Assembly: GCF_003334815.1 (NCBI RefSeq)
Contig: NZ_QOWO01000068.1
Reading direction: 5' to 3' (one strand)
Origin: Escherichia coli
GTDB lineage: Bacteria; Pseudomonadota; Gammaproteobacteria; Enterobacterales; Enterobacteriaceae
DNA: 6,595 bases
Part shown: in pieces, positions 1 through 224 of the stretch
Numbering within the stretch: the stretch's first letter is position 1
Layout: each line of letters begins with the position of its first letter
The notes under the pieces: model-generated
Databases searched by the model: none
What the model saw: the letters and a program-made list of their open reading frames with translations, nothing else
What the model was told of the DNA's origin: nothing
Program-made: the position numbers and the translations under genes

Positions 1-43
1 ACTACAGGGCGAAGCAGGCCTGGCAAGGTCAGCTATGCCTTAG
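1..43 (+). CDS. 3' end of a Tn3-family (Tn21-subgroup-like) transposase gene, partial; only the last 13 codons are in the window
   Basis: Frame 2-43 reads LQGEAGLARSAMP then stop TAG at 41-43. The stop lies inside the CTTAG inner end of the 38-bp terminal repeat at 39-76, the arrangement typical of Tn3-family tnpA 3' ends. Too short for independent protein-level confirmation. Confidence 0.35.
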   Translation, partial: LQGEAGLARSAMP

Positions 44-76
44 CGTGCTTTATTTTCCGTTTTCTGAGGTGCCCCC
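39..76. repeat. 38-bp terminal inverted repeat of a Tn21-subgroup (Tn3-family) transposon; inner end CTTAG at left, outer end CCCC at 76
   Basis: Sequence CTTAGCGTGCTTTATTTTCCGTTTTCTGAGGTGCCCCC; reverse complement GGGGGCACCTCAGAAAACGGAAAATAAAGCACGCTAAG has the GGGG...ACGCTAAG layout of Tn21/Tn501/Tn1721-family 38-bp IRs. It matches the IR at 6472-6509 at 28 of 38 positions in the same orientation. Confidence 0.7.
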
Positions 77-224
77 TAATTGAGCATTTCCAGGCGCTTG
101 CGCCTGGTCAACGAAAGAGTCAGCGCCGTAGGCGCTGCCATTTTTGGGGTGAGGCCGTTCGCGGCCGAGGGGCGCAGCCCCTGGGGGGATGGGAGGCCCG
201 CGTTAGCGGGCCGGGAGGGTTCGA

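What the first reader, a model, noticed from the sequence alone, without database searches (positions are those of the whole stretch)
1..81. A second, different Tn3-family terminus abuts oriV, in the same orientation as the Tn1721-type IR at the far end
The 38-bp repeat at 39-76 has the Tn21-subgroup IR layout and is preceded by what looks like the last codons and stop of a tnpA. It differs from the IR at 6472-6509 at 10 of 38 positions, so it belongs to a different element. Both IRs have their outer (GGGG) end toward the right, so they are direct, not inverted, and cannot flank one transposon. This implies a Tn21-like element immediately upstream of the window, with its tnpA end inserted next to the oriV GC-rich region. 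The 5 bp just outside it (TAATT, 77-81) are a candidate target-site duplication to look for at that element's other end.
Basis: partly seen in the sequence, partly recalled or inferred. Interest (0 to 1): 0.45.

Follow-up and report, generated by a model that had tools for sequence, protein, structure and literature searches.

The report
Tn21 mercury-end repeat beside trapped oriV
The 38-bp repeat at 39-76 is the mercury-resistance (merR) end of the well-known transposon Tn21, not its transposase end, joined to a stranded IncP-1α replication origin in a resistance-gene arrangement that was published in 2013 and is common in enterobacterial plasmids, so the finding is real but ordinary.

Summary
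The sequence facts hold. Window 39-76 is a Tn3-family terminal repeat. It differs at 10 of 38 positions from the Tn1721 repeat at 6472-6509 and points the same way. The repeat is identical (38/38) to IRmer of reference Tn21 in plasmid R100 and differs at 3 positions from IRtnp. The codons before it (LQGEAGLARSAMP*) are the end of merR, not tnpA. In plasmids 100% identical to the window, merR and merTPCADE lie directly upstream. Where tnpA survives, it lies about 22 kb away at the far end. From base 77 the window is IncP-1α DNA (pBS228/RK2-type oriV, nine iterons), which is uninterrupted at this site in pBS228 (…gacgTAATTgagc…). A complete repeat meeting target DNA at the next base indicates a Tn21 insertion. 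TAATT cannot be shown to be a target duplication, because the reciprocal junction is absent from every collection searched. In sequenced plasmids the other Tn21 end has unrelated flanks (GGGTA, TATTA). The whole Tn21–oriV–ΔTn1721 structure was described by Venturini et al. 2013 (pO111-CRL115). The junction occurs in 294 PLSDB plasmids and 150 of 5,426 complete E. coli genomes. Verdict: already known, low interest.

The parts
1..43 (+). 3' end of merR: the last 13 codons (LQGEAGLARSAMP) plus stop TAG at 41-43, which lies inside the IR
   Evidence: Translation. It is identical to the end of the full 144-aa MerR in the 100%-identical plasmid pMRY16-002_3 (L001 19609-20043). NCBIfam MerR NF010315, E = 7.8e-95. 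Same sequence as the R100 Tn21 merR end.
39..76 (-). IRmer of Tn21, a 38-bp terminal inverted repeat with its outer end at base 76: GGGGGCACCTCAGAAAACGGAAAATAAAGCACGCTAAG
   Evidence: 38/38 match to R100 Tn21 IRmer (L007 59-96). 3 mismatches to IRtnp21 and 10 to the Tn1721 IR. 0 matches expected by chance. IS4321 sits inside this same IR copy in an IncL/M plasmid; from my own knowledge IS4321 targets Tn21-family IRs.
77..81 (.). TAATT: the first 5 bp of IncP-1α DNA next to the IR. It is a candidate target site of the ancestral Tn21 insertion. Only one copy is observable.
   Evidence: pBS228 reads …cggagacgTAATTgagc… without interruption. Alignment to pBS228 begins exactly at base 77. The reciprocal junction was not found.
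77..1020 (.). 944-bp fragment of IncP-1α backbone holding the complete oriV: G+C-rich and A+T-rich regions and nine iterons starting at 395-955. No trfA in the parts of the host plasmids examined.
   Evidence: No mismatch to pBS228 NC_008357 from 12052 across this stretch: all 7 mismatches of the 77-4076 alignment lie in tetA. Nine iterons counted. Described as IncP-1α oriV by Venturini 2013.
121..147 (+). Terminator-like hairpin with a T run, native to the IncP-1α fragment, facing transcription that leaves merR
   Evidence: Consensus scan. This is a pattern match only; function was not tested.
1021..6509 (.). ΔTn1721 tetracycline arm: tetR(A) 1320-1970 (-), tet(A) 2076-3275 (+), pecM/EamA 3307-4191 (-), 5'-truncated tnpA about 4725-6476 (+)
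   Evidence: Annotation of 100%-identical records. ORFs. Most tet(A) plasmids begin to match at window 1021. Venturini 2013.
6472..6509 (-). Tn1721 tet-end IR: GGGGAGCCCGCAGAATTCGGAAAAAATCGTACGCTAAG
   Evidence: Labelled IRtet1721 in Venturini 2013.
6510..6595 (.). Host-plasmid backbone (colicin Ib/Ia operon of IncK2/Z–IncI-type plasmids). The 5 bp next to the IR are GAGTG.
   Evidence: 18 plasmids listed match the whole window at 99.9-100% over 1-6595. Annotation. Venturini 2013 places the locus in the colIb operon.

Best explanation
Window 1-76 is the mercury-resistance end of Tn21: the last codons of merR running into the 38-bp IRmer. It is joined by an old, single transposition event to an IncP-1α plasmid, at TAATT just outside the G+C-rich side of oriV. 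Only the right-hand product of that insertion survives. This is IRmer, then 944 bp of IncP-1α oriV, then the Tn1721-derived tetR-tetA-pecM-ΔtnpA arm that IncP-1α plasmids already carried next to oriV. This 'bridge' between two very abundant transposons has since been copied into many plasmids and some chromosomes. The likely route (inferred) is homologous recombination within Tn21 on one side and within the Tn1721 tet arm on the other, plus IS26 events, which is why the outer flanks differ while the inner junction is invariant. Where the Tn21 copy is complete, IRmer remains a usable transposon end. The oriV is a passenger; no trfA was seen in the parts of the host plasmids examined, and Venturini 2013 reports none in pO111-CRL115 or pO26-CRL125.

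Shown: the identity of every part, the precise junction, the uninterrupted donor site, and the diversity of outer flanks.
Inferred: the order of events and recombination as the means of spread.
For: - IRmer matches R100 Tn21 38/38, and window 1-76 is identical to the R100 merR end.
- MerR identity.
- merR-merTPCADE lies directly upstream in every context fetched where the mer region is intact.
- Window 77-4076 matches pBS228 12052-16051 at 99.8%, starting at the very base after the IR. All 7 mismatches lie in tetA 2089-2351.
- pBS228 and 11 other records matching the whole 417-bp left-flank query at 100% (several of IncP-1α size) are uninterrupted at the site.
- The same junction is found with three different right flanks and two different IRtnp flanks: GAGTG with GGGTA in pO111-CRL115; TTCCA with an IS26 cut in pN55391; TTTTG with the R100-type TATTA in NZ_LS992167.
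- The junction is in 294 PLSDB plasmids and 150 of 5,426 complete E. coli genomes.
- Venturini 2013 (PMC3817090) describes Tn21–IncP-1α oriV–ΔTn1721, the missing direct repeats and the recombination model. It also infers that this Tn21 derivative transposed onward into pO26-CRL111, where it is flanked by 5-bp repeats.
- Roy Chowdhury 2015 (PMC4326458) describes a Tn21/Tn1721 hybrid backbone in E. coli O104:H4.
- R100 (TATTA) and a P1-like plasmid (TAATT) show that Tn21 makes A+T-rich 5-bp duplications.
Against: - The ancestral insertion is inferred from one junction only. No record holds the other half (IncP-1α left flank + TAATT + IRtnp), so the duplication is unproven.
- The window itself stops 38 bp before the IR. 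What lies upstream in its own source rests on records that are 100% identical over 6,595 bp. Those records differ further left: Tn21 is complete in pO111-CRL115 and IS26-truncated in pMRY16-002_3.
- Spread by homologous recombination is inferred from flank diversity, not demonstrated.
Confidence: 0.93

Rival explanations
1. One reading: the repeat is the tnpA-proximal end (IRtnp) of a Tn21-like element, tnpA ends at 41-43, and tnpA/tnpR/res lie immediately upstream of the window.
For: In Tn21-subgroup elements tnpA does end at a TAG inside the IR (R100 and the window's own ΔtnpA at 6474-6476). The layout therefore looks the same when only 38 bp of upstream sequence is visible.
Against: The repeat differs from IRtnp21 at the 3 positions that distinguish it from IRmer. 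The 13 codons are MerR's, not TnpA's. All identical or related records have merR and the mer operon upstream.
Confidence: 0.01
2. The IRmer–oriV joint was made by illegitimate or site-specific recombination or deletion, rather than by transposition of Tn21 into an IncP-1α plasmid. On this view TAATT is not a target site at all.
For: No reciprocal junction and no duplicated TAATT exist in any collection searched. The published analysis stresses recombination in building the locus.
Against: The IR is complete to its last base, and donor sequence starts at the next base. That is the signature of a transposition end, and a random deletion endpoint would rarely give it. TAATT is a typical A+T-rich Tn21 target: compare TATTA in R100 and TAATT in a P1-like plasmid.
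Confidence: 0.05
3. The whole block from IRtnp21 to the Tn1721 tet-end IR, which face each other as an inverted pair, is a composite transposon that moves as one unit. IRmer at 39-76 would then be an internal, unused repeat.
For: IRtnp21 and the IR at 6472-6509 are in inverted orientation. The block ends exactly at 6509 in many different contexts. From my own knowledge, partial cross-complementation of transposases within the Tn21/Tn501/Tn1721 group has been reported.
Against: No 5-bp direct repeat joins the two outer ends where both are present: GGGTA versus GAGTG in pO111-CRL115 (also stated), and TATTA versus TTTTG in NZ_LS992167. In NZ_LS992167 the TTTTG repeat instead pairs the tet-end IR with another Tn1721/Tn501-type IR.
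Confidence: 0.03

Closest known systems
Tn21 of plasmid R100/NR1 (Tn3 family, Tn21 subgroup): the IRmer end with merR
   Same: Window 1-76 is base-for-base the R100 sequence: the merR C-terminus, stop TAG inside the IR, and the 38-bp IRmer. The MerR protein accession is the same, WP_000429836.1.
   Different: Only the flank differs. In R100 the flank is TAATA followed by Tn2670 sequence, with a matching TATTA duplication at IRtnp. Here it is TAATT followed by IncP-1α oriV, with no partner.
Tn21–IncP-1α oriV–ΔTn1721 complex resistance locus of pO111-CRL115 / pO26-CRL125 (Venturini et al. 2013, PMC3817090)
   Same: pO111-CRL115 (NC_022992.1) matches the whole window 1-6595 at 100%, including the colicin-operon flank. 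The parts are the same and carry the same labels (IRmer21, oriV with nine iterons, IRtet1721), and direct repeats are absent in the same way.
   Different: Nothing differs within the window. pO26-CRL125 lacks 160 bp of the oriV iteron region. The paper called the arrangement unique in 2013, but it is now seen in 294 PLSDB plasmids.
IncP-1α plasmids (pBS228; a 60,095-bp RK2/RP4-sized laboratory plasmid CP152305.1): the klcA–oriV–tetR–tetA region
   Same: Window 77-4076 is 99.8% identical to pBS228. The oriV part has no mismatch, and the oriV/tet junction is the same.
   Different: IncP-1α has no Tn21 at this site: the sequence continues leftward towards klcA. It lacks the pecM 5' end, ΔtnpA and the Tn1721 IR, because identity stops at window 4076. 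Its tetA carries 7 substitutions.
Tn1721 tet-end IR (window 6472-6509)
   Same: Same 38-bp Tn21-subgroup layout: GGGG outer end, ACGCTAAG inner end, and an ORF stop inside the IR.
   Different: 10 of 38 positions differ. It belongs to the Tn501/Tn1721 branch and follows a real, truncated tnpA.
Tn21/Tn1721 hybrid backbone in genomic island 3 of E. coli O104:H4 (Roy Chowdhury et al. 2015, PMC4326458)
   Same: [quoted passage not shown] The authors explain this by homologous recombination, with pYT2 (AB605179) and pSal8934b (JF274992) as relatives. Both of those plasmids carry the window's junction.
   Different: The far side of the tet arm differs: ΔtniA follows pecM instead of ΔtnpA and the IR. 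I did not check the O104:H4 sequence itself.

Membership tests
Tn3-family, Tn21-subgroup terminal inverted repeat | A 38-bp repeat with GGGG at the outer end and ACGCTAAG at the inner end | tested here: met
   Pattern match at 39-76 with 0 mismatches; 0 matches in 200 shuffles.
Tn21 IRmer (mer-proximal end) | Sequence identical to IRmer of reference Tn21, and distinguishable from IRtnp | tested here: met
   38/38 match to R100 IRmer (L007 59-96); 35/38 to R100 IRtnp (L007 19693-19730).
Tn21 IRmer (mer-proximal end) | merR reads outward into the IR and stops inside it, with a merC-containing mer operon behind it | tested here: met
   Window 2-43 is the MerR C-terminus. MerR HMM E = 7.8e-95. merTPCADE lies upstream in identical plasmids.
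   Tn21 tnpA ends …GKFRPLRPLQPA* (translated by eye), whereas the window has …LQGEAGLARSAMP*. tnpA is 22.6 kb away at the other end in pO111-CRL115.
Product of Tn3-family transposition | A complete IR joined precisely to target DNA that is continuous in an empty site | tested here: met
   Identity to pBS228 starts at base 77, the base after the IR. pBS228 is uninterrupted at that site.
Product of Tn3-family transposition | A 5-bp direct duplication of the target (here TAATT) at the other end of the element | tested here: not met
   IRtnp flanks are GGGTA (pO111-CRL115) and TATTA (NZ_LS992167). The reciprocal IncP-1α junction is absent from PLSDB, complete E. coli genomes, GTDB genomes and JGI metagenome contigs. 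This shows the partner is lost or unsampled; it does not show that no duplication was made.
Autonomous Tn21 | Cognate tnpA, tnpR, res and IRtnp present in the same element | tested here: inconclusive
   Present in pO111-CRL115. Removed by IS26 in pMRY16-002_3. Both plasmids are 100% identical to the window, so the state in the window's own source cannot be told.
IncP-1α oriV | TrfA-binding iterons (5 + 3 + 1) with adjacent A+T-rich and G+C-rich regions, matching RK2-type plasmids | tested here: met
   Nine iterons at 395-971. No mismatch to pBS228 over 77-1020.
IncP-1α oriV | trfA present in the same replicon, making a functional replicon | not tested
   No trfA appears in the 46 kb around the locus in pMRY16-002_3. 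Venturini 2013 reports none in pO111-CRL115 or pO26-CRL125. I did not scan whole plasmids.

The most novel reading that the evidence does not exclude
The complete but trfA-less IncP-1α oriV, fixed between the Tn21 mer end and the Tn1721 tet arm, may not be an inert passenger. With nine intact iterons, carried by about 3% of complete E. coli genomes, it could bind TrfA from an incoming IncP-1 plasmid. That could interfere with the incoming plasmid's replication (iteron-mediated incompatibility). Alternatively it could let the host plasmid replicate from oriV in non-enteric hosts when an IncP-1 helper is present. Nothing in my evidence tests this. It goes beyond the finding, which concerns only the repeat.
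Probability: 0.12. Interest if true: 0.45.

Novelty: already known. Interest (0 to 1): 0.08.

Why it matters
It matters little as a discovery. The structure is published and widespread, and the correction (mer end, not tnpA end) is an annotation point.

It is useful in practice in three ways. The invariant IRmer|TAATT–oriV joint is a single-origin molecular marker for tracing one lineage of Tn21/Tn1721 multiresistance loci, for example in IncK2/Z–IncI-type colicin plasmids, pESI-like Salmonella Infantis megaplasmids (my own identification of pN55391), IncF and IncL/M plasmids, and some E. coli chromosomes. It shows how a fragment of a broad-host-range replicon can be carried along between two common transposons. 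It is also a reminder that in Tn21-subgroup elements both tnpA and merR end at the TAG inside the repeat, so the ORF end alone does not tell which end one is looking at.

Tried and rejected
1. Search for the partner junction that would prove the TAATT duplication.
   - The 417-bp and 120-bp IncP-1α left flank against PLSDB found only uninterrupted IncP-1α-type oriV regions (IncP-1α plasmids, and Klebsiella/Serratia plasmids of the IncC type seen).
   - A chimeric query of 80 bp flank plus 80 bp IRtnp against 5,426 complete E. coli genomes gave no hit spanning the joint.
   - The exact patterns GGAGACGTAATTGGGGTCGTCTCAG and the generic AATCGGAGACGTAATTGGGG gave 0 hits in GTDB genomes and 0 in JGI metagenome contigs.
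2. A 100% hit to TAATT + IRtnp (H228) turned out to be an independent Tn21 insertion in a P1-like phage-plasmid, with its own TAATT on both sides and different flanking DNA. I rejected it as the partner.
3. Composite-transposon idea (IRtnp21 with the Tn1721 IR): no shared 5-mers.
4. Accessions BN000925, AM261760, AJ744860, NC_006352 and NC_004840 (RK2, pTB11, pB10 and others) are not in the collections. I could not check the published statement that pB10 carries the identical oriV–ΔTn1721 module.
5. Two Python calls failed because a locus file had not yet been copied. One paper search failed on term syntax.
6. I did not use structure prediction, protein homology searches or RNA tools. Nothing in the finding calls for them.

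Full report
**Observation.** The window was read in full. A degenerate pattern for Tn21/Tn501/Tn1721-type terminal repeats finds exactly two sites, 39-76 and 6472-6509. Both are on the minus strand, so both have their outer GGGG end pointing right. None were found in 200 shuffles. The two 38-mers differ at 10 of 38 positions. An ORF ends at TAG 41-43 inside the left repeat, and the next five bases are TAATT.

**Which repeat it is.** Read from its outer end, the left repeat is GGGGGCACCTCAGAAAACGGAAAATAAAGCACGCTAAG. In the reference Tn21 of plasmid R100 this is the mer-proximal repeat, IRmer (L007 59-96), a 38/38 match. The tnpA-proximal repeat, IRtnp (L007 19693-19730, GGGGTCGTCTCAG…), differs at 3 positions. 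Window 1-76 is identical to the R100 sequence that runs from the end of merR through IRmer.

**Which gene ends in it.** Window 2-43 translates to LQGEAGLARSAMP*.
- In plasmids 100% identical to the window, this is the end of a 144-aa ORF. That ORF matches the NCBIfam MerR models (NF010315, E = 7.8e-95, above cutoff) and has the same protein accession as R100 MerR.
- Tn21 tnpA instead ends …GKFRPLRPLQPA*, also at the TAG inside its own repeat (translated by eye).
Both end genes of Tn21 stop at the same TAG of the repeat, and only 38 bases of the gene are visible in the window.

**What lies upstream.**
- pMRY16-002_3 matches window 1-6595 at 100%. It has merR, merT, P, C, A, D, E and urf2 directly upstream, then an IS26 that has removed the rest of Tn21.
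- pO111-CRL115 is also 100% identical over the whole window. It has the same mer module, then Tn6026, an integron with dfrA5, and tnpR and tnpA. IRtnp lies 22.6 kb to the left of IRmer.
- Four other plasmids have merR and the mer operon adjoining the repeat: a Salmonella Infantis megaplasmid, an ETEC IncF plasmid, an IncF plasmid from strain TO6, and an IncL/M KPC plasmid.

**What lies to the right of the repeat.**
- From base 77 to base 4076 the window matches the IncP-1α plasmid pBS228 (12052-16051) at 99.8%.
- All 7 mismatches lie in tetA (2089-2351), so the oriV part has no mismatch.
- Nine TrfA-type iterons are present.
- In pBS228 the site is uninterrupted: …gcgtaatcggagacgTAATTgagcatttcc…. 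Eleven other records matching the whole 417-bp left-flank query at 100% are the same, including a 60,095-bp laboratory plasmid of RK2/RP4 size.
- A complete repeat that meets donor DNA at the very next base is what a transposition end looks like. The simplest history is one insertion of Tn21 into an IncP-1α plasmid at TAATT, between klcA and oriV.
- Most tet(A) plasmids begin to match at window 1021. So 77-1020 is the IncP-1α fragment (944 bp), and 1021-6509 is the Tn1721-derived arm that IncP-1α plasmids already carry next to oriV.

**The proposed target duplication.** TAATT is native IncP-1α sequence, so it is the right candidate, but the second copy cannot be found.
- The IncP-1α left flank occurs in PLSDB only in uninterrupted oriV regions.
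- A chimeric flank + IRtnp query found no spanning hit in 5,426 complete E. coli genomes.
- Exact patterns for the reciprocal junction, both Tn21-specific and generic, gave no hit in GTDB species genomes or JGI metagenome contigs.
- Where Tn21 is complete next to this junction, IRtnp is flanked by GGGTA (pO111-CRL115) or by the R100-type TATTA (NZ_LS992167), not TAATT.
- For comparison, R100 Tn21 has TATTA at both ends. An unrelated Tn21 remnant in a P1-like phage-plasmid has TAATT at both ends. So 5-bp A+T-rich duplications are the rule, and TAATT is a perfectly good target. The partner copy here has been lost.

**How the junction spread.** The inner junction is invariant, but the outer flanks vary.
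- The 5 bp outside the Tn1721 repeat are GAGTG (colicin operon), TTCCA (pN55391) or TTTTG (NZ_LS992167).
- The Tn21 far end is in a colicin-plasmid context, in an R100/Tn2670 context, or cut by IS26.
- This fits spread by homologous recombination within the two abundant flanking elements, plus IS26 events.
- It does not fit movement of the block as one transposon, because no shared 5-mer joins IRtnp21 to the Tn1721 repeat.
- The junction is in 294 PLSDB plasmids and in 150 of 5,426 complete E. coli genomes, some of them on chromosomes.

**Is the repeat still a working end?** Two indirect pieces of evidence bear on this.
- In IncL/M KPC plasmids an IS4321 sits inside this very IRmer copy. That IS4321 and IS5075 target Tn21-family repeats is from my own knowledge (Partridge and Hall 2003).
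- Venturini et al. infer that the Tn21 derivative of pO26-CRL125 transposed onward into pO26-CRL111, where it is flanked by 5-bp repeats.

**Comparison with the literature.**
- Venturini et al. 2013 (PMC3817090) describe this locus in pO111-CRL115 and pO26-CRL125. They describe a Tn21 derivative linked to ΔTn1721 through a region identical to the IncP-1α oriV of pBS228, and they label IRmer21, IRtnp21 and IRtet1721. They note the absence of the 5-bp repeats and attribute the structure to homologous recombination.
- Roy Chowdhury et al. 2015 (PMC4326458) describe a Tn21/Tn1721 hybrid backbone in E. coli O104:H4. They name pYT2 and pSal8934b as relatives, and both carry the window's junction.

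**Verdict.** The end, the gene and the claim that tnpA lies just upstream are wrong. The target duplication is unverifiable. The feature is already known and common, so interest is low.

Noticed in passing
L010 (NZ_LS992167.1 97000-145000): 2599-2641 and 46782-46824: A 44-kb block runs from the Tn1721 tet-end IR (GGGGAGCCC…) to a second Tn1721/Tn501-type IR (GGGGGAACC…) and is flanked by the same 5 bp, TTTTG, on both sides. Inside it lie the window's IRmer–oriV junction, a Tn21 whose IRtnp keeps the R100/Tn2670 flank, catA1, IS1 and IS100. It is either an old Tn1721 insertion that was later filled in by recombination, or a very large Tn1721-bounded unit.
   Followed up: partly
L011 (NZ_OQ821087.1) 1539-2900, corresponding to window 39-76: In IncL/M KPC plasmids from Klebsiella, Enterobacter and E. 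coli, an IS4321 is inserted inside the IRmer copy that abuts oriV. It splits the repeat after …cttagcgtgctttatt.
   Followed up: yes
window 2089-2351 and 4076: All 7 differences from IncP-1α pBS228 fall within 263 bp of tetA. Identity to pBS228 stops at 4076 inside pecM, while the window continues through the pecM 5' end, ΔtnpA and the IR. This suggests a recombinant between an IncP-1α tet region and a fuller Tn1721 arm, or deletion in the RK2 lineage.
   Followed up: partly
window 1020/1021; L012 (NZ_CP026764.1) 3963-4002: The tet arm starts at the same base in two unrelated contexts. One is after IncP-1α oriV (…gctagatc|tatctcatctg). The other is after the outer end of a different Tn3-family-like repeat downstream of strB (…ttttctctatcgacccc|tatctcatctg), which from memory looks like a Tn5393 IR. 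Many PLSDB tet(A) records in a spread sample begin matching at this point. The reason for the shared boundary was not worked out.
   Followed up: no
L008 (NZ_JBWDPX010000002.1) 20001-20043 and 24796-24838: A P1-like phage-plasmid carries an IS26-scrambled Tn21 remnant whose IRtnp and IRmer are both flanked by TAATT. This is the same pentamer as at window 77-81, but in unrelated DNA.
   Followed up: yes
window 93-110 and 121-147: Two G+C-rich hairpins lie in the IncP-1α fragment just outside the repeat. The second (121-137) is followed by a T run and scores as terminator-like on the + strand, so it faces transcription reading out of merR. This is a pattern match only.
   Followed up: no
window 1046-1288 (+): The 80-aa ORF between oriV and tetR (WP_000844627.1) is annotated as 'transposase', 'relaxase' or 'relaxase/helicase' in different records. 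It is Arg/Ala/Glu-rich and the labels conflict. It is probably not a real gene of either kind.
   Followed up: no
window 395-700; pO26-CRL125: [quoted passage not shown] This shows the trapped origin can decay by repeat-mediated deletion.
   Followed up: no
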